Origin: Candidatus Altimarinota bacterium
Lineage (GTDB): Bacteria > Patescibacteriota > Gracilibacteria > UBA1369
DNA length: 32,000 bases
Reading direction: 5' to 3'
Assembly (NCBI GenBank): GCA_041659405.1
Contig: JBAZYK010000004.1
Coordinates: forward strand, 1 to 32,000
Part shown: positions 15,698 through 31,214 of the stretch, in pieces
How positions within the stretch are numbered: position 1 is the stretch's first letter
How the letters are laid out: each line of letters begins with the position of its first letter
Notes under the pieces: generated by a model
Database searches by the model: none
What the model was told of the DNA's origin: nothing
The model's input: only the letters and a program-made list of their open reading frames with translations
Program-made: the position numbers and the translations under genes

Positions 15698-16126
15698 ATG
15701 AGTGAAAAAGGCATGTTTCAAAATTCCTATCAAGTCAAAAATAAAAAACTCGGACAGTGGGGTGAACAAGTTGCGTGCCAATTTCTGCTAAAGAAAGGCT
15801 ATAACCTGGTCGCCAAAAATTATCACATTTTTGGTGGAGAGTTGGATATTATCGTCCAAAAAAATGGTATACTAACGTTCGTGGAAGTAAAAACCCGCAG
15901 CACTCAAACTTTTGGAACAGCAGCGGAAAGCCTGAATCATCGTAAAATTCAAAAACTATATCGTGCGATTCTGATTTATCTGGAAAAAGAAGACGTCCAC
16001 CACTCGTCGACCGGGCACTACCCACTCTGGCAACTCGATTTAATTGCCATCGACATCAGTCAAAATCCCAAAACTTTCAAAAAACAGGCTACTATCAAAC
16101 ATTATAAAAATATTCTTCAACAATGA
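15698..16126 (+). CDS. yraN: YraN family (UPF0102) putative endonuclease
   Basis: GEQVACQFLLKKGYNLVAKNYHIFGGELDIIVQKNGILTFVEVKTRS. The ATG at 15698 is preferred over the TTG at 15692. Confidence 0.8.
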   Translation: MSEKGMFQNSYQVKNKKLGQWGEQVACQFLLKKGYNLVAKNYHIFGGELDIIVQKNGILTFVEVKTRSTQTFGTAAESLNHRKIQKLYRAILIYLEKEDVHHSSTGHYPLWQLDLIAIDISQNPKTFKKQATIKHYKNILQQ

Positions 16127-17526
16127 TTCCTGAAGAAAGCAAAAAAAGATTTATCATTGGATTACTCCTGACAGGGCTTGTCCTGGGGATCCTTTTTATG
16201 GTTTGGGCGGTTTTCCTGAATCGGGCAACCATTCAAATCAAGGCCAGGGCTCCTTATTTTATTACTATTCAGAATTTAAAAACCGTGCCATGTACAATGG
16301 ATGATTGTGAAACCGTTGTGGCTCCGGGTGATTATGCGGTTGTTCTTACTAAGCCCGGTTACCGCAATGAGCAGCGTCAAATCAAACTTTCTTTCCACGG
16401 GAATTATCAGGAAGAAGTTACATTTAATTTTGTTCCGGTGCTTTCCGCCCAGGCTCCGCGCCAACTTTTTGTTTTGCCTGCGACTACCCATTTTGCAAAC
16501 AACAAAGACACGGATCAAAATATTTTTAACACAAAAACTGCGGCTGTGGATTTAAATATTCAAAACAATCCTGTTCAAAATTTAACTAAACTTCCAGCCG
16601 GTATTACGGATTTAACTTTTGCGCCGGATGGCAAAACCGCAATAGTTTACGAAACCAATCGCATTTCTTTTTATGATCTGACAACCGATACCCTAACTCC
16701 TTTAATAACTCCGGCAGGCGCCAAGTTTTTTTATGATCAGGCGGGGCGATATGTGGCTTACATCAAGCGCAATGAAGGCAATTTCCTGCAGACGCTTTAT
16801 TTGCAGGCTTTGGACGAAAAAAATAATTTACAAACGGCAATTCCGGTTACTTCTTTTATTCGTGATCTGAATAATTACACTATAAGTATTTCGCCGGATC
16901 ACCAAAAAATTATTGTTGTTGATCAGGGAAGTCAAAATTCAAATTTATATTTTGTTGATCTGCAAAGCAAAAATCGCCAGAGCCTCTTACAGTATCCGGC
17001 AATTCGTGAAGTAAAATGGCTGCCCAACAGTAAGGATTTTATTTTTCAGGCACGTGCCGAAAATACTATAGATGATGGCCTTTTTCTGTACTCCGGCGAT
17101 ACGCAAAAAGTTATGACACTCATGCTTAAAACAAAACTGGCGGATGTTGCCATTGTTAATGATGATCGTATTTTAGCCGCTACAGTTCAACAAATTCCGG
17201 GGTCAAATGAATTGGCGAAAATCGAAGGAAATCCGGTGGCGCTCGGCGATAATTTGAATGTGTTGGATAAAGTTCAATCCACCGCGCAGGGCGTGCCTGG
17301 TTCTACCGCAAGCGGGGCGGGCATCATAAACAATCCAAATAGTCCGACCTCGGACATTCAACAAATGTTGTCATTCGTGGATTTTTCACTTCAAAATAAT
17401 GAAGCTGTTTTGCTTAAAGGTCAGCCCGGCGGAACTCTGCCCAATGCCATTAATTTAAGCCCGGATGGCAAGACTTTGTGGATACTTTCAGGTGATCAAA
17501 TTTCCGGTTTGCGCTTAGCTGAATAA
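16123..17526 (+). CDS. Membrane-anchored protein with a PEGA-like domain and TolB/PD40-like beta-propeller repeats
   Basis: TM helix FIIGLLLTGLVLGILFMVWAVFL, PEGA-like APGDYAVVLTKPGYRNEQRQIKL, and repeated xSPDGK motifs (FAPDGKTAIV, ISPDHQKIIV, LSPDGKTLWI). It overlaps yraN by 4 nt. Confidence 0.6.
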   Translation: MIPEESKKRFIIGLLLTGLVLGILFMVWAVFLNRATIQIKARAPYFITIQNLKTVPCTMDDCETVVAPGDYAVVLTKPGYRNEQRQIKLSFHGNYQEEVTFNFVPVLSAQAPRQLFVLPATTHFANNKDTDQNIFNTKTAAVDLNIQNNPVQNLTKLPAGITDLTFAPDGKTAIVYETNRISFYDLTTDTLTPLITPAGAKFFYDQAGRYVAYIKRNEGNFLQTLYLQALDEKNNLQTAIPVTSFIRDLNNYTISISPDHQKIIVVDQGSQNSNLYFVDLQSKNRQSLLQYPAIREVKWLPNSKDFIFQARAENTIDDGLFLYSGDTQKVMTLMLKTKLADVAIVNDDRILAATVQQIPGSNELAKIEGNPVALGDNLNVLDKVQSTAQGVPGSTASGAGIINNPNSPTSDIQQMLSFVDFSLQNNEAVLLKGQPGGTLPNAINLSPDGKTLWILSGDQISGLRLAE

Positions 17527-17531
17527 TTCAC

Positions 17532-18887
17532 ATGATCAATAAAATCGAAAAAACTCGTCAGGAAATTCTTAAAAAAGGCCAAAAAATTATCAATCTTTCT
17601 TCGGGGAATCCGGGAGAATTTGGCATTTTCTTTCCTGAAAAAATTCTTCAAAATGCATATGGCAAATTTCTAAAAAATCCCGCCTATCACCCCGAACCAA
17701 AAGGCGATTTAAAGGCCAGAAAAGCCATTGCCGGTTTTTATGCCAAACGAAATTTTAATGTTAATCCAGATCAGATTTTATTAACTTCCGGCACCAGCGA
17801 AAGTTATTTTGAAGTTTTTAAATTATTAAACCCGCACGATGCAATTTCGGAATCCTCCGGCCATGCTTGCACAAACTCCATTCCATGTGCCCCCGCGACC
17901 CGTTGTGAAATCTTGTTACCCAATCCTTCCTATCCACTTTTTGAAGAAATAGCCCGACTAGCCGAAGTCGATTTTTCCTTTTACAGACTGGATGAAAAGG
18001 CTGGCTGGCAAATTGACCTAAATGACCTGCGCGCAAAAATCCGTCCCGAAACCAGAGCGATTGTTTTGATTTCTCCAAGCAATCCAACCGGCGCGGTCCT
18101 TTCGGAAAAAACTTTGAAAGAAGTAATAAAAATCGCCGTCGAAAATAATCTGGCCATAATCAGCGACGAAGTTTTTTCGGAGTTCATGTTCGACCAAAAA
18201 GTTTTCCCAAGAGTCGCGCAAATCCATCAAAAAATGGCAGACAAAAGCGAAAAAGCAAGTAAGGCAAACAGCGCACTCACAAAAAAAAATATTCAAAATT
18301 CGTTTGAGAAAATCCAAAATCTGCGCATTTTTACACTCAGTGGGATTTCCAAAACCTACGCTTTGCCCGGATTAAAATTAGGCTGGATTGTGGTTACAGG
18401 AAGCCAAAACCAAAGCCACCATGGGCCCAATAATAATACCCATTTTTCGGAAACAGTTAACGAACTGGAACGCCTTGCCGATACTTTTTTGGCATGCAAT
18501 CAACTTACGCAAACCATGTTGCCGGACATAATTTCCAAAGGTGAATCTTTCATTAAAAAATATCGCAATCATCTCCAGAAAAATCGTGATCTGGCCATGA
18601 AAATTTTGGGCGGTTGTCCTAAAATTACTTTTCACAAATCCGAAGGTGGTATGTATCTTTTTGTCCGAATTGACGGCTTATTTAAAACAGAAAGAACCGC
18701 ACATGGGCCAAGGAAAAGACCGGTAACCGATGAAGAATTTGTGATCAAATTGCTCGAAAAACACAAAATTTTCGTCCACCCCGGTTATTTTTATGATTAT
18801 GATAACGGCCTTTATCTTCTGATCAGTTTTTTGATACCAAAAAAGGAGCTCGAAAAAAGTCTTAAAAGAATCATCGCAATTTTATAA
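17532..18887 (+). CDS. PLP-dependent aminotransferase, class I/II, with several insertions
   Basis: SPSNPTGAVLS and SGISKTYALPGLKLGWIVV (PLP lysine context). 451 aa, with low-complexity insertions. Confidence 0.8.
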   Translation: MINKIEKTRQEILKKGQKIINLSSGNPGEFGIFFPEKILQNAYGKFLKNPAYHPEPKGDLKARKAIAGFYAKRNFNVNPDQILLTSGTSESYFEVFKLLNPHDAISESSGHACTNSIPCAPATRCEILLPNPSYPLFEEIARLAEVDFSFYRLDEKAGWQIDLNDLRAKIRPETRAIVLISPSNPTGAVLSEKTLKEVIKIAVENNLAIISDEVFSEFMFDQKVFPRVAQIHQKMADKSEKASKANSALTKKNIQNSFEKIQNLRIFTLSGISKTYALPGLKLGWIVVTGSQNQSHHGPNNNTHFSETVNELERLADTFLACNQLTQTMLPDIISKGESFIKKYRNHLQKNRDLAMKILGGCPKITFHKSEGGMYLFVRIDGLFKTERTAHGPRKRPVTDEEFVIKLLEKHKIFVHPGYFYDYDNGLYLLISFLIPKKELEKSLKRIIAIL

Positions 18888-18958: not shown

Positions 18959-20698
18959 ATGGCTATCAAGATTTTTTCCTGTATTAATCAAGGGTTGGAA
19001 GGCAAATTAGTTGAAGTTGAAGCGGATATCCTACAGGGACTTTCTGCTTTTTCTATTGTAGGCCTTGGCGATATGGCGGTTCAAGAAGCCAAAGAACGCA
19101 TCAGGTCAGCAATAAAAAACAGCGGATTTAACTATCCACAAACCAAGAAAGTTATTAATCTTGCGCCTGCGCACGTGCGTAAACATGGGCCGCAATTTGA
19201 TTTGCCCATGGCGATTGGCCTGCTGGCAGCCTCAAAACAAATTCCCGAAAATATTTTGCAGGAAATGCATGGTCTTTTGATTGTAGGAGAATTGGCTTTA
19301 GATGGAGCAGTTCGACCAATAAATGGGATTTTAACCATGGCGATTTTTGCTAAAAAAAACGGCTGGTCAAAAATCATTATCCCTAAAGAAAATGTCGCGG
19401 AAGCATCGCTGGTTAGTGGCCTGGAAATTATTCCATTAAGTCATTTAAACCAAATACGGGATTTGGATTCCGCCAAAAATATTTTCAACAGTGCGACAGT
19501 TTTTAATATTTCGGAGCAGGAATTTAGTCAGGAACAAAGTGGCGGAAATGGAAACGGCTCTCACGAGCCATTTTTAGGGCAAGAATCTGTGCGTGCGCAC
19601 AGATTGAATCCAGACACCTTCACCGATTTTTCCGATATTGTCGGGCAGGAGATTGCCAAAAGAGCGCTCACTATTAGTGCGGCAGGCAAGCACCATTGTC
19701 TTCTAATCGGGCCGCCGGGCGTGGGCAAAACCTTACTTGCAAAAGCTTTTCCGGGCATTTTACCGCCACTTTCAGAAGGCGAAATGTTGGAAGTGATGCA
19801 GATTTATTCCAGTGCCGGACTTTTGCAACACGCACAAAATTCACAAAAAAGTGTGCTCATGACGCAAAGGCCTTTTAGGCAGATTCATTCAAGTTCTTCA
19901 TTGTTGGCCTTAACCGGCGGAGGAATCCAATTAAAACCCGGTGAAATTTCACTCGCTCATCATGGAGTTTTATTTTTGGATGAAATCGCCGAGTTTCCAC
20001 GTTCGCATCTTGAATCGCTGCGACAACCATTGGAAGAAAAGGAAATTTACGTATCGCGCTCCTCCGGAACGGTTAAGTATCCAGCCAATTTTACGCTTAT
20101 TGCAGGCATGAACCCCTGCCCCTGCGGCTACTATGGTGATCCTGAGAAAAGCTGTATTTGTCCGGCAAATCAGGTAATTCGCTATCAAAAAAAACTTTCC
20201 GGACCACTGCGGGATCGAATTGATTTGGTAATAGAAGTTCCTCGGCAGTCCATCTCGAAATTTCAGGAAGCGGATAATGTTGAAACAAAAAATGCTCAAA
20301 GTTTATCTCAAAATTCGGCCGCAATTAAAGAGAAAATTATCAACGCTCGGCTTATTCAAGCCAAAAGATTCAGTGCAGATCCAAATGAGCTCTTCGATCC
20401 GCGCCAACAGTCCACCTCCACTTCATCTCCCAATCCACACTTCAACTCAAACGGTGAAGTTCCTTCTAGCAGCCGCACCAATAGCGAAATGACTCCTCCG
20501 GAAATAAAAAAATATTGTCCCATTAATAAAGAATGTCAGGATTTATTAAAGCTGGCTAACGAAAAATTCAATTTTTCCGGCCGCAATTATCACCAAATAC
20601 TCAAAACCGCCCGCACAATCGCGGACCTGGAAAATCACGAAAACATTCAACTGGAAGACCTAAGTGAAGCACTGCAGCTAAGGCACCGCAACCGCTAA
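18959..20698 (+). CDS. comM: YifB/ComM family Mg-chelatase-like AAA+ protein
   Basis: Lon-protease-like N-terminal domain (QFDLPMAIGLLAAS), Walker A GPPGVGKTLLAKA, VLFLDEIAEF, and the zinc motif CPCGYYGDPEKSCIC. 579 aa, with linker and C-terminal insertions. Confidence 0.9.
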   Translation: MAIKIFSCINQGLEGKLVEVEADILQGLSAFSIVGLGDMAVQEAKERIRSAIKNSGFNYPQTKKVINLAPAHVRKHGPQFDLPMAIGLLAASKQIPENILQEMHGLLIVGELALDGAVRPINGILTMAIFAKKNGWSKIIIPKENVAEASLVSGLEIIPLSHLNQIRDLDSAKNIFNSATVFNISEQEFSQEQSGGNGNGSHEPFLGQESVRAHRLNPDTFTDFSDIVGQEIAKRALTISAAGKHHCLLIGPPGVGKTLLAKAFPGILPPLSEGEMLEVMQIYSSAGLLQHAQNSQKSVLMTQRPFRQIHSSSSLLALTGGGIQLKPGEISLAHHGVLFLDEIAEFPRSHLESLRQPLEEKEIYVSRSSGTVKYPANFTLIAGMNPCPCGYYGDPEKSCICPANQVIRYQKKLSGPLRDRIDLVIEVPRQSISKFQEADNVETKNAQSLSQNSAAIKEKIINARLIQAKRFSADPNELFDPRQQSTSTSSPNPHFNSNGEVPSSSRTNSEMTPPEIKKYCPINKECQDLLKLANEKFNFSGRNYHQILKTARTIADLENHENIQLEDLSEALQLRHRNR

Positions 20699-23512: not shown

Positions 23513-23873
23513 GCTGGATCGCAACGGTCGTTTTTGGTCTATTTATAGCGCTAAACCGGTGTAATATTACACTGCACTTTTCGGCTAATTTCAAGATGAA
23601 AAATTCGATTTTTTGCACTGCATTTGCTAGAGTTTTGGTGAACATGGATGTGGAAGAAAATATGTTCCGGCAATCTTCCTAAAAAGATTGTCACCCACTG
23701 GACGAACAATCTTCGCATCCGTTAATAATATTTTTTTGATCGGCTTTTCACGGGAAGTCCCAGCGGAAAAGTCGTAGAATACCCCTTTGGTTATTGACGC
23801 TCATCGCCTGGATGAGCAGTAATGTTTGGCCTTGTTCAAGCGACATTACGCCTATTCTTTAACCGATTTTTTT

Positions 23874-24941
23874 ATGATCGCAGAAAATAAAAATTCACCA
23901 AACGGGCTGGACAGAGAACAATTGGATTTCACCAAAATTGACGACGTGCAATTGTTTGCAATGTGCAAAAGATTTGGAGAGCAAGCCAGAATCTGGCGGC
24001 AGAAATTTGCGGGTCTGTTGCCAGAAGTGCTCAAAAGACGCTTGTACGAGCGCAAAGGTTTCGAATCAATCTTCGTATTTGCAAAAAAACTGGCAGGCAT
24101 GAGCGAAGAACAAGTTCGTCGCGTGCTCAATTTGGAGCAAAAATTTGAAGATAAACCGGTTCTTAAAAATTTATTATTGAATGGCGAAATCAGCGCAAAT
24201 AAACTCGCAAGAATCGCTTCAATTGCAACACCGGAAAATCAGGAATTCTTGGCGAATCAAAGCAAAATACTTTCGAATCGTGCACTTGAGACTTTGGTGA
24301 AAGATGAAAAATTCGCCCAAGAAACACTAAATCGCGACTTGCAAAACTTACCCGACCCAAAGAGTCAAAACGGCTCACAAGAGCCATTATTTGAACAGAA
24401 ATCTGTGCACGTGCACACAAATTCAACAGGTATTTTTGAAGACGTCAAACTGCTCCAAAAATTTTCTCCGGAACTTAAAACAAAACTAAAAGAGCTCGAT
24501 GAAAAAGGTCTCGACATCAACCAAATTCTGCTCGAACTTCTGCAAAAACGCGATGAAGAAATCGCAATGGAAAAAGAACAACTCGGTGAAGCTATAGTCG
24601 CAAAACAGCTAGCTGAAGAGGCTTTGGCCAAGCAAGCGGAAGATCAGGCTGCCAACGCCCAGGGAAATATTGTGAAAAAATCCATCGAACTTTCTGCAAA
24701 AAAGCCATCCAGCTACATCAACGTGGCAACAAAAAATCTCCTCAAAAAAGAATTTGGTGATAAATGTTCAATTCCCGGTTGCAACAATCTTGCAAAACCG
24801 ACTCATCACACGCAAAGATTTGGCCTAAGCCATAATAACGATCCTCGTTTTCTGGCTCCGGTCTGTGAACAACATCACGAAATTGCGCATTCCATCGACC
24901 AAAAATATCAATACAGACGTGCCAGGGCTATCGAGCTGTAG
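23874..24941 (+). CDS. HNH endonuclease with a DUF222-like helical N-terminal region
   Basis: C-terminal CSIPGCNNLAKPTHHTQRFGLSHNNDPRFLAPVCEQHHEIAH (CxxC...HH...N...CxxHH). The ATG at 23874 is preferred over the TTG at 23826. Confidence 0.8.
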   Translation: MIAENKNSPNGLDREQLDFTKIDDVQLFAMCKRFGEQARIWRQKFAGLLPEVLKRRLYERKGFESIFVFAKKLAGMSEEQVRRVLNLEQKFEDKPVLKNLLLNGEISANKLARIASIATPENQEFLANQSKILSNRALETLVKDEKFAQETLNRDLQNLPDPKSQNGSQEPLFEQKSVHVHTNSTGIFEDVKLLQKFSPELKTKLKELDEKGLDINQILLELLQKRDEEIAMEKEQLGEAIVAKQLAEEALAKQAEDQAANAQGNIVKKSIELSAKKPSSYINVATKNLLKKEFGDKCSIPGCNNLAKPTHHTQRFGLSHNNDPRFLAPVCEQHHEIAHSIDQKYQYRRARAIEL

Positions 24942-27046: not shown

Positions 27047-29875
27047 ATGAAAATACGCCTATCAGAACAGGTCATTCAAAAACTTCCCGCAATTGATGTT
27101 GCCGTCATTGTCATTAAAAACATCAACAACAAAAGGAAAAGCTCAATGGTTGCTCAGCTTTTAAGAGGTGTTTGCGCCAGCAAGAAACAGCAGTTAAAAA
27201 AAGAAGCGCCAGAACCAACCTTAATGGAGGGGTCAATTTTGGCTGAAACGTATTTGTTGGATAGCCTGCTTAAAAAGGTGGTAAAGGGGACCGAGATCAA
27301 AAGTGAAAACAACCTTTCGGACATGGTTCATCATTTAATGATCAAAAATTCAGTTCCAACTCTTGGCGTGGATCTGGATCAAATTGGCAAAGATATTGAA
27401 ATCAAATTCATTGTTCCTAAAAAAGGCAAAAAGGCACAGGACTTAAATTTCACACCGGAAACCCGGAATATTGTTCTTTGGTTGATGAATACCGATCATA
27501 ATTCACCGGAGGAATTTGAAGAATTGGTTCTGGAATTTTCAAAAACCATCCAGAAATATTGCAATGGTTTGTTGGATGACATCTACTATCTAACAGTCGA
27601 AAATCCGGAAACGGATCTTAAATATATTTCAGAAAGAGAGCTCCACCCTGAGGATTTTGAGGAAAAGGATGTAAAGGGTTCAACCACACGCAAAACTGGT
27701 TCGATTACCAACAAAGATGGTGCGATGGAAACTTCCGAAAAAATCACCCCGGAAAAACCACCAAAAAATATTTCACCTGATCAAAAATCACTGCTTGAAC
27801 CAAAAGAGCCAAAATCTTTTGTGTTTGAGCCTTCCATAAGAGATCAACTGCAACAGGAACTTGAAAAAGCGGTACAGTTAACTTTTGCGGGAAACGGCAA
27901 AATTGGCTCACAGATCAGCGAATTGCAGATTGAAATTGAAACTCCACGTGAAGCCGGGCATGGTGATTATGCCAGCAATATTGCTTTAAAACTTGCGAAA
28001 ATAGTTGGCAAAAATCCTCGTGAAATTGCCGAACAAATCCTGAAAAATATGCCGGTAAAGACGGAAACGGAGCAAAATCCGGTTGTGACAGTTGATTATC
28101 TGGAAAAAGCCGAAATCGCCGGAGCGGGGTTTATCAATTTTCATCTTTCCCAAAGTCATCTTAAAAAAGAACTTCAAAAAATTCTCGATTTCCAAAAAGA
28201 TTATGGCCGAATTGAGCTTGGTAAAGGGCAAAAAGCCGTTATCGATTTTTCTTCACCGAACGTTGCCAAACCTTTGGGCGTGCATCATTTGCTTTCCACT
28301 TTGATCGGGCAAACTGTTATAAATATTTTACGTTTCGCCGGTTTTGAAGTGATCGGTGTGAATTATTTGGGGGATTGGGGAACTCAATTTGGCAAACTGA
28401 TTTATGCTTACAAAAATTGGGGTGATCGCGCAGTGATAGAAACTGATCCTCTTAATGAACTCCTTAAATTATATGTCCGTTTTCATGATGAGGCCGAAAA
28501 ATACGCGCATCTGGAAGAAAAAGGCCGTGAAGAATTTAAAAAATTGGAAGAAGGGGACAGCGAAAATCGCAAAATTTGGGAATGGGTGCGTGAAATCAGC
28601 ATTAAAGAACTTGAACGTTTGTACAAAAAATTGGGCGTTCATTTTGACGAATATTTGCCGGAAAGCATGTACGAAGAAGGCATGAAAGACATTCTTAAAG
28701 AAGGCAAAGAAAAAGGCATTTTTGTCGAAGGCGAAAAAGGCGCATATATTGTTCAGTTTGATGAACCGCAGGCGGAAAAAGGCGAAAATTCCGAACAGGC
28801 TTCAGCCGCTGCTCCAGCACCAGCCACTGCCGCGCTTCCACCATATCTCGTCCAAAAAGGCGACGGCACCACGCTTTATTCAACTCGCGATTTGGCTTCC
28901 ATGAAGGATCGCGTTGCGCGTTTTCATCCAACTAAACTCATTTATGTTGTTGATATCGCCCAGTCTCTTCATTTTAAACAACTGTTTGCCACAGCCAAAA
29001 AAATGGGACTGGATCTTGATCCGGCTAACCCAGGGCAGGACAACATGGCGATTTCCAGCTCATCCGCCGCGGCTAATCCGGCCGCAGTTGATTTAACCCA
29101 CGTAATTTTCGGTCGCATGCAATTTCCGGAAGGCAGTATGAGCACCCGCAAAGGAAATATAATTTTGGTTGATCAGCTGATTAAAGAAGCGGAAGAGCGT
29201 GCCCAAAAAATCATTGACGAAAAGGGCGTGGAGATTATTCCCGCCGAAAGAAAAACGATCGCCGAAGGAATCGCGATTGGAGCAATTAAATATCAGATTA
29301 TTTCTCAAAATCGTGAAACCAACATGATTTTTGATTGGGATCGCATGCTGGCATTGGATGGCAACAGTGCGCCATATTTACAATATGCCTATGCGCGTGC
29401 CGCCAGTATTATCCGCAAAGCCGAAGAAAAAACTTTTGTGCCGGTGAATGATGGCCCGCAGACCAATATTTTTGAAATGGCTAGGGAAGCGGAAATCAGG
29501 GCCGCACAGGAAACGGAAAATCGCGAAAAAAACAACGAAAACAGTTCAGACACCCGCACAGAAACCGGCTCTGCAAAACCATCAGAAGCCGAATCCAAAA
29601 TTTATGGGTACCCAACTGAACAGGCGCTTTTAAGGGCGCTGGCCAAATTTCCCGAAGCCATAGAGATGTCTGCCAGGACCTACAAACCAAACCTGCTCAG
29701 CAATTACCTTTACGAACTTACTCAAACCTTTAACGGCTTTTATCAGGAGGTTTCCGTGCTAAACACACTGCGTGAAGACCTCAGAACTTCCCGCCTTGAT
29801 TTAGTTCACGGCTTCACCCAGGTACTAAAAAACGGCCTAACCATATTGGGTATTCAAACTTTTGAAAGGATGTAG
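27047..29875 (+). CDS. argS: Arginyl-tRNA synthetase with an N-terminal B3/4-like (COG3382-type) domain fusion
   Basis: ArgRS core from about aa 270: PREAGHGDYASNIALKLAK, SSPNVAKPLGVHHLLST, MSTRKG, ...YLYELTQTFNGFY, C-terminal ERM. The first ~200 aa resemble standalone B3/4-domain proteins (MKIRLSEQVIQKLPAIDVAVIVIKNINN...; LLKKVVKGTEIKSENNLSDMVHHLMIKNSVPTLGVDLDQIGKDIEIKF). Confidence 0.9.
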   Translation: MKIRLSEQVIQKLPAIDVAVIVIKNINNKRKSSMVAQLLRGVCASKKQQLKKEAPEPTLMEGSILAETYLLDSLLKKVVKGTEIKSENNLSDMVHHLMIKNSVPTLGVDLDQIGKDIEIKFIVPKKGKKAQDLNFTPETRNIVLWLMNTDHNSPEEFEELVLEFSKTIQKYCNGLLDDIYYLTVENPETDLKYISERELHPEDFEEKDVKGSTTRKTGSITNKDGAMETSEKITPEKPPKNISPDQKSLLEPKEPKSFVFEPSIRDQLQQELEKAVQLTFAGNGKIGSQISELQIEIETPREAGHGDYASNIALKLAKIVGKNPREIAEQILKNMPVKTETEQNPVVTVDYLEKAEIAGAGFINFHLSQSHLKKELQKILDFQKDYGRIELGKGQKAVIDFSSPNVAKPLGVHHLLSTLIGQTVINILRFAGFEVIGVNYLGDWGTQFGKLIYAYKNWGDRAVIETDPLNELLKLYVRFHDEAEKYAHLEEKGREEFKKLEEGDSENRKIWEWVREISIKELERLYKKLGVHFDEYLPESMYEEGMKDILKEGKEKGIFVEGEKGAYIVQFDEPQAEKGENSEQASAAAPAPATAALPPYLVQKGDGTTLYSTRDLASMKDRVARFHPTKLIYVVDIAQSLHFKQLFATAKKMGLDLDPANPGQDNMAISSSSAAANPAAVDLTHVIFGRMQFPEGSMSTRKGNIILVDQLIKEAEERAQKIIDEKGVEIIPAERKTIAEGIAIGAIKYQIISQNRETNMIFDWDRMLALDGNSAPYLQYAYARAASIIRKAEEKTFVPVNDGPQTNIFEMAREAEIRAAQETENREKNNENSSDTRTETGSAKPSEAESKIYGYPTEQALLRALAKFPEAIEMSARTYKPNLLSNYLYELTQTFNGFYQEVSVLNTLREDLRTSRLDLVHGFTQVLKNGLTILGIQTFERM

Positions 29876-29932
29876 GGACGCGCGCAGCCCTTGACGTTAG
29901 AAAAATACCTGACGGATTTGAATGTCCGGGCA

Positions 29933-30118
29933 GAGATTTGCAGCACATTATTTACACACAAGCAAAGTTATTGCATCCACTTGTGCACGTGCACAGATTT
30001 GCAGCCAAATAATGGCTACCGCGAGCCGTTTGATCGTAAAAAATAGGCGGGCGTACAAAAAGACTTGCGCAACATTTTTTACTTTCCCCACGCACGAAGT
30101 GCTTATTTTTTCTGCGAG
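29933..30118. repeat. Multi-hairpin repeat element, copy A (core palindrome TGTGCACGTGCACA at 29982-29995)
   Basis: 29947-30017 matches 30565-30635 at 68 of 71 positions. Weaker similarity resumes at 30091-30118 versus 30706-30728. Confidence 0.85.
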
Positions 30119-30526
30119 CTGACCGAGCTCCCCAGCCTGGTTTTTAGCAAAAAAATCGTATCACTGCGTAGTTTGGCTTTCACCCAGTCTTTCTGCTTTT
30201 CATCAAGTATCTCCCCCATTCCGGCCAGAATGCCCCGATCGCCAAGTTTTTCAAGTGACTTTATGCATTTTTTAAGAAAACTTTCGGTCATCATCCCAGT
30301 CCTGTCTAAAATGATTTTCTGATTGATTGGCCTTAAAATTTTTGAACGAATATGTTTGACCATCACAGACAATATTTTTAGTCTGATAAGAAGCGACAAA
30401 AATATTACCATAATATTGAAAAATTATGCCTTGGCGTATCATAATAAAAGCCAAATATAAGAAAAAACCTAACCTTTGACTCAAATTATAACAATAAATT
30501 GCCAGACCATTGCCCCGATCAGCCAT
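30103..30526 (-). pseudogene. Two overlapping small ORFs in different frames (about 56 aa, 30272-30442; about 63 aa, 30103-30294): a small-gene pair or a frameshifted remnant
   Basis: ORF-track entries 30272..30526 and 30103..30411 overlap out of frame. No domain was recognised. The locus is bracketed by repeat copies A and B. Confidence 0.25.
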
Positions 30527-30550
30527 TCGGCGGAGGAATCAGCGGACACA

Positions 30551-30728
30551 AGAATTTGCACAATATTATTTACACACAAGCAAAGTTATTGCATTCACTT
30601 GTGCACGTGCACAGATTTACAGCCAAATAACGGCTTGCGCAAGCCAATTCCATTTTTAAAATCGTCATTGGAAGAGCGGTGACTTTACACTGCAATTCCC
30701 TAAATTACGCCAAGTGCTTTTCTCGCAT
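30551..30728. repeat. Multi-hairpin repeat element, copy B (core palindrome at 30600-30613)
   Basis: Direct repeat of copy A, 618 bp downstream and in the same orientation. Confidence 0.85.
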
Positions 30729-30904
30729 ATACAAAAAATCATTCTAAAAATTGTCATGAGCAAAATGAGGAAATCTAAATTTTGGGTCTTGTGGGTCCCA
30801 AAAATTGGATTTCCGATTAACGCGAATGATAATTTTTAGAATTCACTATAGGGAAAAAGTTCCCCAAAAGAAAAAACCGACAGGTTTTGTCTTTTGATTT
30901 GCTT

Positions 30905-30980
30905 TGGAGGCGGCGATCGGATTCGAACCGATGCATAACGGTTTTGCAAACCGCTGTCTTAACCACTTGACTACGCCGCC
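30905..30980 (-). tRNA. tRNA-Cys (GCA) with encoded CCA
   Basis: The reverse complement folds as a cloverleaf: acceptor GGCGGCG/CGCCGCC, D arm GTCA-AGTGGTTA-AGAC, anticodon arm GCGGT-TTGCAAA-ACCGT, T arm ATCGG-TTCGAAT-CCGAT, discriminator U, then CCA. Confidence 0.93.
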
Positions 30981-31214
30981 CCGCCTTTTACACCGTTGAA
31001 TGATAGTGGGATAATTCGGAAAAAGCAATCCTGGAGGAGACCGCAAATGACCAAGCCATTCTTGGATCGGATCATCGGATTTTTTCTCTGCTCTCCAGCC
31101 AGACCCAGAGTGGGGATTCCAAATCTGTCAAAGCCATATCGCGATCCTTTATTGCGGCTAAACTTTATTGTAGTAGAATAAGCCTCGGTTTAAATTATTT
31201 AATCTCCCCAAAAT

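What the first reader, a model, noticed from the sequence alone, without database searches (positions are those of the whole stretch)
29933..30728. Two ~190-bp direct copies of a multi-hairpin element bracketing a degraded small-ORF locus beside tRNA-Cys
Copies A (29933-30118) and B (30551-30728) share a 71-nt block with only 3 differences (29947-30017 versus 30565-30635), and weaker similarity about 105 nt further on. The block folds as consecutive hairpins:
- CACAAGCAA-AGTTA-TTGC..CTTGTG
- the perfect palindrome TGTGCAC/GTGCACA
- ATTTG-CAGC-CAAAT
- GGCT-N6-AGCC, with different loops in each copy
The motif GATTTGCAGC occurs at both ends of the block. The reading frames differ between the copies, so protein coding is unlikely. 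With 618-bp spacing and only two copies, it is not a CRISPR array. Candidates are a small structured RNA gene family, a MITE-like mobile element, or recombination sites delimiting a cassette.
Basis: seen in the sequence. Interest (0 to 1): 0.72.

Follow-up and report, generated by a model that had tools for sequence, protein, structure and literature searches.

The report
Dispersed palindromic repeat flanking dead toxin-antitoxin
The two repeats are copies of a small palindromic DNA element that is scattered through the genomes of ultra-small (CPR) bacteria and also sits inside one of their gene families. Here they bracket a decayed toxin-antitoxin operon that was inserted between the arginyl-tRNA synthetase gene and tRNA-Cys.

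Summary
The repeat is real: 92 nt at 90% identity, 618 nt apart. The stated 190 bp is overstated, and the "different reading frames" claim is wrong, since 618 = 3 x 206.

- **The locus between the copies.** It is a decayed AbiEi/AbiEii toxin-antitoxin operon. It is intact in related strains and was destroyed here by three microhomology deletions.
- **An insertion.** A relative has only 14 nt between ArgS and tRNA-Cys, so the whole ~1 kb is inserted DNA.
- **A wider family.** The first ~50 nt of each copy (minus strand) is a module: GGCT-N6-AGCC, N14, AATCTGTGC-N4-GCACA. Two more copies lie in this window, in frame inside a ComM-like gene and inside an HNH-like ORF. The module matched 49 metagenome contigs (about 0.2 was my own estimate for chance).
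- **Contexts.** About half of those sit mid-ORF in the HNH-like family. About half are solo, some as near-identical ~92-nt units at unrelated loci.
- **Constraint on the DNA.** The palindrome centre covaries (A-T, G-C, C-G) while the encoded residues change (HV, PG, RA).

Best reading: a REP/MITE/RPE-like selfish palindromic element with terminator-like hairpins. The A/B pair arose from a segmental duplication or recombination tied to the cassette insertion, and gene conversion keeps the two alike. It is not an Rfam RNA, an attC site, a tRNA att site or a coding sequence. Its function has not been tested.

The parts
29936..30027 (-). Copy A of the ~92-nt element, read on the minus strand. It contains hairpin 1 GGCTCGCGGTAGCC (30014-30027), a 14-nt spacer (30000-30013), the palindrome AATCTGTGCACGTGCACA (29982-29999) and hairpin 3 CACAAG..CTTGTG (about 29957-29985).
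   Evidence: Repeat family D1. nhmmer hit at 6.7e-18. Model R1 scores 59.6 bits.
29891..29939 (-). Tail of copy A. It holds a degenerate second palindrome, AATCTCTGCCCGG-ACA, and then sequence matching the stretch that follows the module inside the HNH-like ORF (24399-24448). It includes the T-loop-like TTCAAATCCG.
   Evidence: blastn 76% over 50 nt, E 1e-5. This explains the apparent tRNA-like 10-mer as part of the element family rather than an att remnant.
30554..30645 (-). Copy B of the element: hairpin 1 GGCTTGCGCAAGCC (30632-30645) and the palindrome (30600-30617). It lies 255 nt downstream of tRNA-Cys and just upstream of the abiE promoter.
   Evidence: 66.3 bits. Hairpin 1 plus TTATTTGG is flagged as terminator-like on the minus strand.
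30103..30294 (-). C-terminal remnant (63 aa) of the AbiEii toxin gene.
   Evidence: It clusters with the intact 244- and 251-aa AbiEii proteins. PADLOC AbiEii match to positions 175-224 of 231, E 7.8e-12.
30314..30506 (-). Fragments of the abiEi antitoxin gene and its 5' region, with an extended -10 promoter-like TGT-TATAAT at 30485-30493. Three deletions relative to strain L003 have junctions with 7-9 nt microhomology.
   Evidence: blastn mapping to L003. Junction sequences. AbiEi identity of the intact gene, PADLOC E 1.6e-56.
30905..30980 (-). tRNA-Cys (GCA). The inserted region begins at its 3' end.
   Evidence: ARAGORN and Rfam. In relative L006 the same tRNA lies 14 nt from the ArgS stop codon.
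27047..29875 (+). Arginyl-tRNA synthetase gene, forming the other border of the insertion.
   Evidence: Pfam domains of the called gene. NCBI name for the exact protein.
24372..24417 (+). Third copy of the module, in frame (..NGSQEPLFEQKSVHVH..) in the middle of a 371-aa HNH-like ORF (23826-24941).
   Evidence: nhmmer 1e-14. R1 scores 70.2 bits. N- and C-domain HMM hits flank it. Its two-hairpin fold has z -3.1.
19556..19601 (+). Fourth copy of the module, in frame (..NGSHEPFLGQESVRAH..) in the inter-domain linker of a ComM/YifB-like Mg-chelatase ATPase gene (18959-20698).
   Evidence: nhmmer 8.4e-15. R1 scores 63.6 bits. The orthologue in L006 lacks it. Fold z -3.35.
30741..30842 (.). A separate long imperfect hairpin with 46-nt arms, inside the same inserted DNA. 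It is not part of the repeat family.
   Evidence: I1. Fold z -7.8 on the plus strand and -5.9 on the minus strand. No other copy found.

Best explanation
**What is shown.**
- Copies A and B are two members of a family of small dispersed palindromic DNA elements. The family is found in Gracilibacteria, Peregrinibacteria and related CPR bacteria.
- The family core, read on the window's minus strand, is a short G+C stem (GGCT-N6-AGCC), a 14-nt spacer, and a palindrome of up to 22 bp (AATCTGTGC-NCGN-GCACAGATT).
- The same module is a constant, in-frame part of an uncharacterised Cys/His-rich ("HNH-like") ORF family. It also occurs as solo units of about 90 nt between genes, next to tRNA genes, and in frame in other genes (ComM here).
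- In this locus, about 1 kb of DNA (about 2 kb when intact) was inserted between the ArgS stop codon and tRNA-Cys. It carries an AbiEi/AbiEii toxin-antitoxin operon bracketed by two elements.
- In this strain the operon then decayed through three short-homology deletions.

**What is inferred.**
- The A/B pair arose from one duplication of a ~190-nt segment. Equivalently, a circular or donor DNA carrying one copy recombined with a resident copy in a Campbell-type event. Two independent transpositions are less likely.
- The two copies keep exchanging sequence by gene conversion.
- The element is essentially selfish or structural DNA. Its hairpins followed by T-rich tracts can act as intrinsic terminators or insulators at gene and tRNA 3' ends. 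Its palindrome is kept symmetric either by a DNA-level process (template switching in quasi-palindromes) or by a dimeric protein. The associated HNH-like protein is the obvious candidate.
For: **Family membership.**
- nhmmer and the covariance model find exactly 4 module copies in the window.
- The fixed-spacing pattern hits 49 metagenome contigs, against about 0.2 that I estimated by chance.
- 22-23 of those lie between N- and C-domain homology of the HNH-like ORF family. 26-27 have no such homology within 1.2 kb either side.
- L020 and L022, from one contig, share a 92-nt unit at 91/92 identity with unrelated flanks.

**Constraint at the nucleic-acid level.**
- The centre pair of the palindrome is AU 20, GC 18, CG 12, GU 3, other 2 across 55 sequences. 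The covariation score is 0.127 against 0.066 in shuffles, with 0 of 500 shuffles as high.
- Watson-Crick pairing at that position is 0.90 against 0.34 expected.
- In a protein sample not selected by DNA pattern, the central dipeptides are HV 25, PG 19 and RA 15. The flanking residues pair as L..Q 42, V..H 19 and V..N 13.

**Insertion.**
- Relative L006 has the ArgS stop, 14 nt, then tRNA-Cys.
- The L006 ComM orthologue lacks the module.

**The cassette.**
- Intact abiEi-abiEii lies between A' and B' in L003.
- The deletion junctions have 7-9 nt microhomologies.

**Gene conversion.**
- At the palindrome centre, at CAATAAC/CAATGAT and at CTTGTG/CTTGCG, both copies within a genome agree with each other and differ from the other strain. 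Other sites are position-specific instead.

**One duplication of about 190 nt.**
- A second short motif (..GCAGAA..AAGCACTT..) precedes both copies at a similar distance.

**Terminator-likeness.**
- Hairpin 1 of copy B is flagged as terminator-like.
- In L028 both hairpins of two copies are flagged immediately after the stop codons at 4803 and 6198.
- 5 of 27 solo modules lie within about 140 nt of a tRNA gene.
Against: - No target-site duplication or clear terminal inverted repeats flank A, B, L020 or L022.
- No transposase or recombinase gene lies in the 32-kb window.
- Copy number could be measured only in about 40 kb of this genome, at 4 copies.
- A and B do not fold better than shuffled sequence.
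- Copy A's hairpin 1 has only 4 pairs and is not flagged as a terminator.
- A terminator role cannot explain why the stem sequence is conserved across distant lineages. It also cannot explain why the module sits mid-ORF in the sense orientation.
- Solo modules near gene 3' ends are roughly what compact genomes would give by chance.
- There are no expression data.
- The "HNH-like" label rests only on a Cys/His motif. Pfam, NCBIfam, PADLOC, PDB sequence and fold searches gave nothing significant.
Confidence: 0.6

Rival explanations
1. A and B are site-specific recombination sites (attL/attR-like). A module-specific recombinase or nuclease inserted the AbiE cassette through them and could excise it. 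The palindrome would be the core site, with two inverted protein-binding arms around a central crossover region.
For: - Direct repeats bracket an operon that carries its own promoter.
- The whole segment is absent from the empty site next to a tRNA gene.
- Locus content differs between close strains: L002 has an extra HepT/MNT pair.
- L040 has three same-strand modules in 1.2 kb, two of them preceded by orphan tRNA 3' halves.
- The palindrome has inverted arms around a 2-4 nt centre.
- As a loose analogy, phiRv1 integrates inside the REP13E12 repeat of M. tuberculosis (PMC9317374). That those repeats encode DUF222/HNH proteins is from my own recollection and was not checked.
Against: - No integrase or recombinase lies in the window.
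- AbiE homologues in other CPR contigs have no module within 4 kb.
- The HepT/MNT cassette in L002 replaces copy A and is not flanked by modules.
- Most solo modules are single copies.
- The centre (CG, usually inside a self-complementary 4-mer) gives no polarity for directional recombination.
- The repeats do not overlap tRNA-Cys.
Confidence: 0.15
2. The element is a gene for, or part of, a small structured RNA transcribed from the minus strand. It would have two or three hairpins, and A and B would be paralogous copies.
For: - The module folds as two clean hairpins in the intragenic copies and in L020, with z -2.6 to -3.4.
- The fifth pair of hairpin 1 is U-A 33, U-G 12 and C-G 2. This tolerates wobble only on the module-sense strand.
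- One A/B substitution turns G-U into A-U in hairpin 3 on the minus strand.
Against: - There is no Rfam family, even at E <= 10.
- A and B themselves do not fold better than shuffles.
- Half of all copies are translated in frame inside ORFs.
- The only strong covariation is at a pair that would enclose a 2-nt loop, which an RNA hairpin cannot form.
- The scan finds no promoter immediately upstream of A or B.
Confidence: 0.08
3. This is only a local segmental duplication with no function. The resemblance to other loci would reflect common descent from decayed HNH-like gene fragments.
For: - A and B resemble each other (90%) more than any other copy (82% and 73%).
- They share a second motif about 105 nt away.
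- Copy A continues into sequence that matches the HNH-like ORF downstream of its module.
Against: - The module is conserved with covariation in solo copies too, with 22 of 27 centres Watson-Crick.
- L020 and L022 share identical sharp boundaries at unrelated loci.
- No HNH-family homology flanks A, B or 26 other solo copies.
Confidence: 0.07
4. Copy B is the operator through which the AbiEi antitoxin autoregulates the abiE promoter, and copy A is a by-product.
For: - Copy B ends a few nt before the -35 region in L003 (TTGCTT-17-TGTTATAAT).
- From established knowledge of Streptococcus agalactiae AbiE, AbiEi proteins bind inverted repeats in their own promoters.
Against: - The same module occurs in dozens of loci without AbiE.
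- AbiE operons in other CPR genomes lack it.
- The palindrome centre lies about 60-70 nt upstream of the -35 region rather than over the promoter.
Confidence: 0.03
5. The repeats encode small Cys-rich peptides: either ..LFTHKQSYCIHLCTCTDLQPNNG.. on the plus strand, or ..NLCTCTSGCNNFACV on the minus strand, as a RiPP-like precursor.
For: - The copies are in register, since 618 = 3 x 206.
- The three internal substitutions are synonymous in plus frame 0.
- The minus-strand ORFs end at the same stop codon and have a Cys/Thr/Ser-rich tail.
Against: - The orthologous copy A' in L003 has a 4-nt insertion inside the block.
- In the minus frame, 0 of 9 differing codons are synonymous.
- None of these ORFs is present as a called protein in the 15-billion-sequence collection.
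- There are no Pfam hits.
- The N-terminal parts are unrelated.
- The block is explained by the DNA family.
Confidence: 0.02

Closest known systems
REP/BIME elements of Proteobacteria (with their RAYT transposases)
   Same: Both are short imperfect palindromes dispersed through the genome. Both are often found at gene 3' ends, sometimes as composite dimers, and can act as terminators or mRNA stabilisers. Copies within a genome are homogenised. A protein-coding gene is associated with the repeat.
   Different: The associated gene here carries the element inside its ORF rather than being flanked by it. That gene is a Cys/His-rich HNH-like protein, not an IS200/IS605-type tyrosine transposase. 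Copies here are also translated in frame inside genes. The sequence and host lineage are unrelated. Copy number per genome is unknown.
Rickettsia palindromic elements (RPE), 'selfish DNA in protein-coding genes' (reviewed in PMC2229807 and PMC3184786)
   Same: Both are small palindromic repeats found between genes and also inserted in frame in otherwise conserved genes. The insertion adds a short peptide in a tolerant region (the ComM linker here), and orthologues lack it.
   Different: The sequence family and host (CPR rather than Rickettsia) differ. The module here is shorter, about 50-90 nt. It is a fixed ancestral feature of one whole ORF family, and the codon-level covariation that preserves a DNA palindrome is especially clear.
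Bacterial MITEs such as Correia/CREE, RUP, BOX and ERIC (review PMC10969869)
   Same: Both are non-coding, about 100 nt long and multi-copy. Near-identical copies occur at unrelated loci, presence or absence varies between relatives, and there are possible promoter or terminator side effects.
   Different: No target-site duplication and no convincing terminal inverted repeats were found in A/B. Only some solo copies are symmetric around the palindrome. No parent IS element was identified.
Inverted pairs of DNA uptake sequences (Neisseria DUS, Haemophilus USS)
   Same: In both, a conserved 9-10-mer is arranged as an inverted pair forming a terminator-like hairpin at gene ends, and the sequence also occurs in frame in coding regions.
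   Different: AATCTGTGC never occurs as a singleton in this window. All 5 occurrences lie inside the 4 modules, so there is no genome-wide over-representation of the single word.
Integron attC sites and tRNA-linked att sites of integrative elements
   Same: In both cases direct repeats with internal dyad symmetry delimit a cassette, here beside a tRNA gene.
   Different: There are no R''/R' core sites (GTTRRRY), no integron integrase, and the cassette has its own promoter. The repeats do not contain the 3' end of the tRNA, and no integrase gene is present.

Membership tests
MITE | Terminal inverted repeats | tested here: inconclusive
   A and B have no matching ends. Some solo copies are symmetric, as hairpin-N14-palindrome-N14-hairpin (L036, L026, L041). 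The ends of the L020/L022 unit match at about 12 of 16 positions when read by eye.
MITE | Target-site duplication | tested here: not met
   No duplicated flank is present at A, B or at L020/L022.
MITE | Several near-identical non-coding copies at unrelated loci | tested here: met
   A and B are 90% identical. L020 and L022 are 91/92 identical with unrelated flanks. L028 and L040 each have three copies.
MITE | Related autonomous element encoding a transposase | tested here: inconclusive
   No transposase lies in the window. The only associated gene is the HNH-like ORF, which carries the module internally. Its activity is unknown.
REP/BIME | Short imperfect palindrome, mainly extragenic, in high copy number | tested here: inconclusive
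   The palindrome is present. About half of the copies are extragenic. Copy number is known for only about 40 kb of this genome, at 4 copies.
REP/BIME | Associated RAYT (IS200/IS605-like TnpA) gene flanked by REPs | tested here: not met
   No such gene was found among the window ORFs. The rest of the genome could not be searched.
RPE-like in-frame palindromic insertion | In-frame copy inside a conserved gene whose orthologue lacks it | tested here: met
   The ComM-like gene carries the module in its linker, and the L006 orthologue (64% identity) lacks it.
RPE-like in-frame palindromic insertion | Sequence homology to the Rickettsia RPE families | not tested
   No RPE sequences were available to compare. 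The host lineage is unrelated, so only the mode of occurrence is claimed.
Integron attC / gene cassette | R''-L''...L'-R' inverted core sites with GTTRRRY, an adjacent intI gene, and a promoterless cassette | tested here: not met
   No GTTRRRY/RYYYAAC pair was seen by inspection. No integrase is present. The abiE operon has its own TGT-TATAAT.
tRNA-targeting integrative element (attL/attR) | Direct repeats that include the 3' part of the tRNA gene, plus an integrase | tested here: not met
   The repeats lie 255 nt and more from tRNA-Cys. The T-loop-like 10-mer near copy A belongs to the HNH-ORF-derived tail. No integrase is present.
Intrinsic (Rho-independent) terminator | G+C-rich stem-loop followed by a T run, downstream of a gene | tested here: inconclusive
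   Hairpin 1 of copy B is flagged, but copy A is not. In L028 both hairpins of the copies are flagged directly after stop codons. There are no transcript data.
Any Rfam RNA family | Covariance-model match | tested here: not met
   Only tRNA was found, both at gathering threshold and at E <= 10 over 29800-31100. Nothing was found in 20 solo loci.
AbiE (type IV toxin-antitoxin / abortive infection) operon, for the DNA between the copies | Adjacent AbiEi antitoxin and AbiEii nucleotidyltransferase genes | tested here: met
   The intact pair in L002/L003 matches PADLOC AbiEi at 1.6e-56 and AbiEii at 4.6e-74, and Pfam PF08843. The window keeps only fragments.
HNH nuclease, for the ORF family that carries the module | Beta-beta-alpha-metal fold or significant profile match | tested here: inconclusive
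   The invariant C-x4-C..HH..C-x2-HH-x2-AH pattern is present. There is no significant Pfam, NCBIfam, PADLOC or PDB match. The AF2 model has pLDDT 76. Its best Foldseek hits are Cap5 proteins (HNH nucleases, from my own knowledge), but only at E > 2.

The most novel reading that the evidence does not exclude
The module is the cis-acting site of an unrecognised class of selfish element in CPR bacteria. The autonomous form would be the HNH-like gene, which carries its own recognition palindrome inside its reading frame. That arrangement would explain why codons co-vary to keep the DNA symmetric. The protein would nick or bind the palindrome and spread short non-autonomous copies. These copies would land in frame in host genes, beside tRNA genes and around defence cassettes, where they also provide homology for cassette gain and loss.
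Probability: 0.25. Interest if true: 0.8.

Novelty: new variant of a known kind. Interest (0 to 1): 0.6.

Why it matters
- **Little is known about repeats in these genomes.** CPR/Patescibacteria genomes are tiny and thought to be streamlined, and almost nothing is known about their repeats or mobile DNA. I found no Rfam family and no paper describing this element.
- **A clean example of double constraint.** A palindrome is preserved across more than a thousand representative clusters of one ORF family by compensatory codon changes. It also recurs as free ~90-nt units. This shows selection, or a mutational mechanism, acting on DNA symmetry inside a coding sequence.
- **A handle on CPR biology.** It offers a way to study how these genomes gain and lose defence cassettes, how they terminate transcription, and what this abundant unannotated Cys/His-rich protein family does.
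- **Practical use for annotation.** The model explains odd short insertions in conserved proteins such as ComM, and contig breaks near tRNA genes.

Tried and rejected
1. **Coding reading (Cys-rich peptides, RiPP-like).** Attractive at first because the copies are in register and the three substitutions are synonymous in one frame. Rejected because of the 4-nt indel in L003, the absence of any called protein and the absence of family hits.
2. **tRNA att remnant.** TTCGAATCCG, the T-loop of tRNA-Cys, recurs next to copy A' in L003. Rejected because this stretch matches the HNH-like ORF downstream of its module.
3. **The genome-contig hit L001.** I first dismissed it as chance. It later proved to be the same module inside an HNH-like ORF homologue, plus a partial intergenic copy.
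4. **A pattern built on the A/B-specific part.** It found nothing in viral or metagenome contigs. Only the shorter module pattern worked. Viral contigs gave nothing.
5. **Module as part of the AbiE cassette.** Rejected: close AbiE homologues in other CPR contigs have none.
6. **DNA-uptake-sequence idea.** Rejected: there are no singleton AATCTGTGC words.
7. **parS-like site.** Only the CACGTG core matches the canonical parS that I recall. Rejected by inspection.
8. **Module as the reverse complement of the HHTQRF-coding region of the same ORF.** Only about 9 nt are shared across the family, and the weak tblastn hits (E 0.06-0.2) overlap in different frames. Treated as chance.
9. **Naming the HNH-like family.** Pfam, NCBIfam, PADLOC, PDB profile search, AlphaFold2 and Foldseek gave nothing significant.
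10. **tmRNA or tRNA in the L040 array.** None was called.
11. **Alternative genetic code 25.** Excluded: TGA is never in frame in 21 long ORFs and ends 2 of them.
Full report
**1. The observation.** The window holds a direct repeat, 29936-30027 versus 30554-30645. It is 92 nt long, 90% identical, and 618 nt from start to start. Sub-blocks of 23 and 25 nt occur exactly twice in the window, against 0.00 expected in shuffles. Beyond about 96 nt the alignment collapses. The exception is a short ..AAGTGCTT.. motif about 105 nt further on, so "190-bp copies" is generous.

However, A and B do not fold better than dinucleotide shuffles: z is -0.1 to -1.6 and -1.3 / -0.1. The statement that the reading frames differ is wrong, because 618 = 3 x 206. 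The three internal substitutions even share one codon phase and are synonymous in plus frame 0. Coding is nevertheless excluded. The orthologous copy in a related strain carries a 4-nt insertion inside the block. None of the candidate small ORFs exists as a called protein or hits a family. No Rfam family matches, even at E <= 10.

**2. The DNA between the copies.** Exact-sequence look-up places the window in Candidatus Gracilibacteria MAGs. TGA behaves as a stop codon here, so table 11 is appropriate. The 63-aa ORF at 30103-30294 (minus strand) clusters with 244- and 251-aa proteins. These are AbiEii toxins (Pfam PF08843; PADLOC 4.6e-74), each preceded by an AbiEi antitoxin (PADLOC 1.6e-56).

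Contig L003, from a strain about 91-95% identical, shows the intact locus. Its order is copy B', a promoter-like TTGCTT-17-TGTTATAAT, abiEi, abiEii, copy A', and then the end of ArgS. The window strain lost three internal pieces of about 246, 208 and 529 nt. The junctions carry 7-9 nt microhomologies. In strain L002 copy A and its surroundings are replaced by a HepT/MNT pair that is not flanked by the element.

**3. The whole region is an insertion.** The closest other ArgS (64% identity, contig L006) is followed after 14 nt by an identical tRNA-Cys on the opposite strand. There is no repeat and no AbiE. Window 29876-30904 is therefore inserted DNA. That stretch includes both copies, the operon remnants and a separate 104-nt hairpin at 30741-30842.

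**4. The repeat belongs to a family.** Sensitive comparison found that the first ~50 nt of A and B (read on the minus strand) recur twice more in the window on the plus strand.
- One copy is at 24368-24417, inside a 371-aa ORF.
- The other is at 19552-19601, inside a ComM/YifB-like ATPase gene.
- Both are read in the same frame: NGSQEPLFEQKSVHVH and NGSHEPFLGQESVRAH.
- The ComM orthologue in L006 lacks the stretch.
- The 371-aa ORF is itself absent between its orthologous neighbours in L006.

The module is GGCT-N6-AGCC, then N14, then AATCTGTGC-N4-GCACA. The single hit of my first genome-collection scan (L001, a Peregrinibacteria MAG) had looked like chance. It turned out to be the same module in a homologue of the 371-aa ORF, with a partial intergenic copy 4 kb away.

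Scanning the metagenome collection with the fixed-spacing pattern gave 49 contigs. From the pattern's information content I estimated about 0.2 chance hits. Viral contigs gave none.

**5. Two kinds of context.**
- HMMs of the N- and C-terminal parts of the ORF family flank the module in 22-23 of the 49 loci.
- The other 26-27 loci have no such homology within 1.2 kb on either side. The same holds for A, B, the ComM copy and the L003 copies.
- Solo copies lie between genes, often within a few nucleotides of a stop codon in either orientation.
- Five of 27 solo copies lie within about 140 nt of a tRNA gene.
- The covariance model found further diverged copies. L028 has three on one strand. L040 has three within 1.2 kb of non-coding DNA, two of them preceded by orphan tRNA 3' halves. 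Several solo elements are symmetric around the palindrome.
- Two loci of one contig (L020, L022) share a 92-nt unit at 91/92 identity with unrelated flanks. That is the same size as A/B, and it cannot be explained by independent decay of two genes.

**6. The constraint is on the nucleic acid.**
- In the 55-sequence alignment, the pair at the palindrome centre is A-U 20, G-C 18, C-G 12, G-U 3 and other 2. T-A never occurs. The covariation score is 0.127 against 0.066 in shuffles, with 0 of 500 shuffles as high.
- That alignment fixes 22 positions by ascertainment. I therefore also took a sample that does not depend on the DNA pattern: the 150 best of 1,285 representatives of the ORF family.
- Nearly all of these carry the peptide at the same place. 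The central dipeptides are HV 25, PG 19 and RA 15, which correspond to CAC-GTG, CCC-GGG and CGC-GCG. The flanking residues pair as L..Q 42, V..H 19 and V..N 13, corresponding to CTG/CAG, GTG/CAC and GTT/AAC.
- The amino acids change while the DNA stays palindromic.
- The covarying centre pair would enclose a 2-nt loop. This argues for a duplex-DNA or templating constraint rather than an RNA hairpin.
- Hairpin 1 varies less informatively: U-A 33, U-G 12 and C-G 2 at its fifth pair.

**7. Anatomy of A and B.** Each copy is a composite. It consists of the module, a third hairpin (CACAAG..CTTGTG), a spacer resembling the first spacer, and a degenerate second palindrome (AATCTCTGCCCGG-ACA, compare AATCTGTGCCCGGGCACA). 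In copy A, about 45 nt then follow that match the ORF sequence just after its module. This also accounts for the T-loop-like 10-mer that I had first taken for a tRNA att remnant.

Comparing A, B, A' and B' shows two kinds of site.
- At some sites the two copies of one genome agree and differ from the other strain. These are the palindrome centre (ACGT/ACGT versus GCGC/GTGC), CAATAAC versus CAATGAT, and CTTGTG versus CTTGCG.
- At other sites the difference is position-specific (A matches A', and B matches B').

This is the signature of gene conversion between the two direct repeats after the strains diverged. A second short motif precedes both copies at a similar distance. This suggests that one ~190-nt segment was duplicated, or recombined Campbell-fashion with a cassette-borne copy, rather than two elements inserting independently.

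**8. Function.** This step is inference. In the antisense orientation both hairpins meet the tool's intrinsic-terminator criteria and sit directly after stop codons in L028. In the sense orientation, hairpin 1 of copy B is flagged. The canonical solo form, A-tract, G+C stem, T-tract, looks like a bidirectional terminator. On this reading copy B would insulate the abiE operon from tRNA-Cys read-through, and copy A would separate the convergent abiEii and ArgS genes.

A terminator role does not explain the conserved stem sequence, the symmetric centre, or the mid-ORF position. For those features, a dimeric protein or quasi-palindrome template switching is the more likely cause. The obvious protein candidate is the Cys/His-rich one that always carries the site. 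That protein family could not be named. It has invariant C-x4-C..HH..C-x2-HH-x2-AH. It has no significant Pfam, NCBIfam, PADLOC, PDB or fold match.

**9. Comparison with known systems.**
- The element behaves like REP/BIME, MITE and especially RPE elements, which also occur in frame with orthologues lacking them (PMC2229807, PMC3184786, PMC10969869). It fails the MITE criteria of target-site duplication and, for A/B, of terminal inverted repeats.
- It is not an attC site: there are no core sites, no integrase, and the cassette has its own promoter.
- It is not a tRNA att site: the repeats do not overlap the tRNA.
- It is not a DUS-like word: there are no singletons.
- It is not part of AbiE cassettes in general.
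- Literature searches found nothing on such elements in CPR bacteria.
- The integration of phiRv1 inside the REP13E12 repeat of M. tuberculosis (PMC9317374) is a loose analogy only.

**10. Verdict.** The locus itself is ordinary: a dead toxin-antitoxin islet beside a tRNA gene. The element family it exposes is an undescribed variant of the small-palindromic-repeat kind. Its unusual feature is a codon-level covarying DNA palindrome kept inside an abundant ORF family.

Noticed in passing
window 30741-30842: A long imperfect inverted repeat (46-nt arms, 76% complementary) lies between the tRNA-Cys terminator and copy B. It folds as one ~104-nt hairpin, at -44.8 kcal/mol (z -7.8) on the plus strand and -33.3 kcal/mol (z -5.9) on the minus strand. 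No other copy exists in any held sequence. It lies within the DNA that is absent from the empty site.
   Followed up: partly
L003 976-1019 and 1524-1567; window 30088-30131 and about 30700-30728: A 44-nt motif (CTCGC.GCAGAA..AAGCACTTCG.GCGTGG) occurs in frame inside abiEii, in a segment that the ~231-aa homologues lack. It recurs at the gene's 3' end (82%, E 7e-7) and, degenerate, upstream of copy B. It may be a second small in-frame repeat.
   Followed up: partly
window 23826-24941: The 371-aa Cys/His-rich (HNH-like) ORF is absent between the orthologous Lactamase_B and fn3 genes of relative L006, so the gene is itself an insertion. Its family has 1,285 representative clusters but no Pfam, NCBIfam, PADLOC or PDB assignment.
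   Followed up: partly
L040 1380-2600: A 1.2-kb non-coding stretch between tgt and an HD-domain gene holds three same-strand modules. Two are preceded by orphan tRNA 3' halves (GGGTTCGATTCCCGGTGGTTCCACCA). It also has internal direct repeats. No tRNA, tmRNA or Rfam family is called there.
   Followed up: partly
window 29931-29990 (+) and 30549-30608 (+): The plus-strand translation of A and B (QRFAAHYLHTSKVIASTC) weakly resembles the HHTQRFA..H..LAPLC motif of the HNH-like family (tblastn E 0.06-0.2). A second weak match lies in an overlapping frame. This is probably chance, but it is odd given the palindrome's link to that family.
   Followed up: partly
L002 1441-2336: In a strain about 95% identical, a HepT/MNT (HEPN toxin / nucleotidyltransferase antitoxin) pair replaces copy A and the last 8 codons of abiEii. 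This ArgS/tRNA-Cys spacer is therefore a fast-changing toxin-antitoxin islet.
   Followed up: partly
window, several genes (for example 27047-29875, 16123-17526, 17532-18887, 18959-20698): Housekeeping proteins are consistently longer than their L006 orthologues: ArgS 942 versus 903 aa, ComM 579 versus 521, an aminotransferase 451 versus 403, and an unnamed protein 467 versus 372. The extra residues include low-complexity insertions. One example is a 26-aa Ser/Thr/Pro-rich insert near the ComM C-terminus. ArgS also has a G+C-rich stretch at about 28700-29100.
   Followed up: no
window 30865-30904: Directly after tRNA-Cys on the minus strand lies an A/U-rich stem-loop followed by a T run (CAAAACCTGTCGGTTTTTTCTTTT). 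It looks like the tRNA's own terminator, so copy B is not needed for that role.
   Followed up: no
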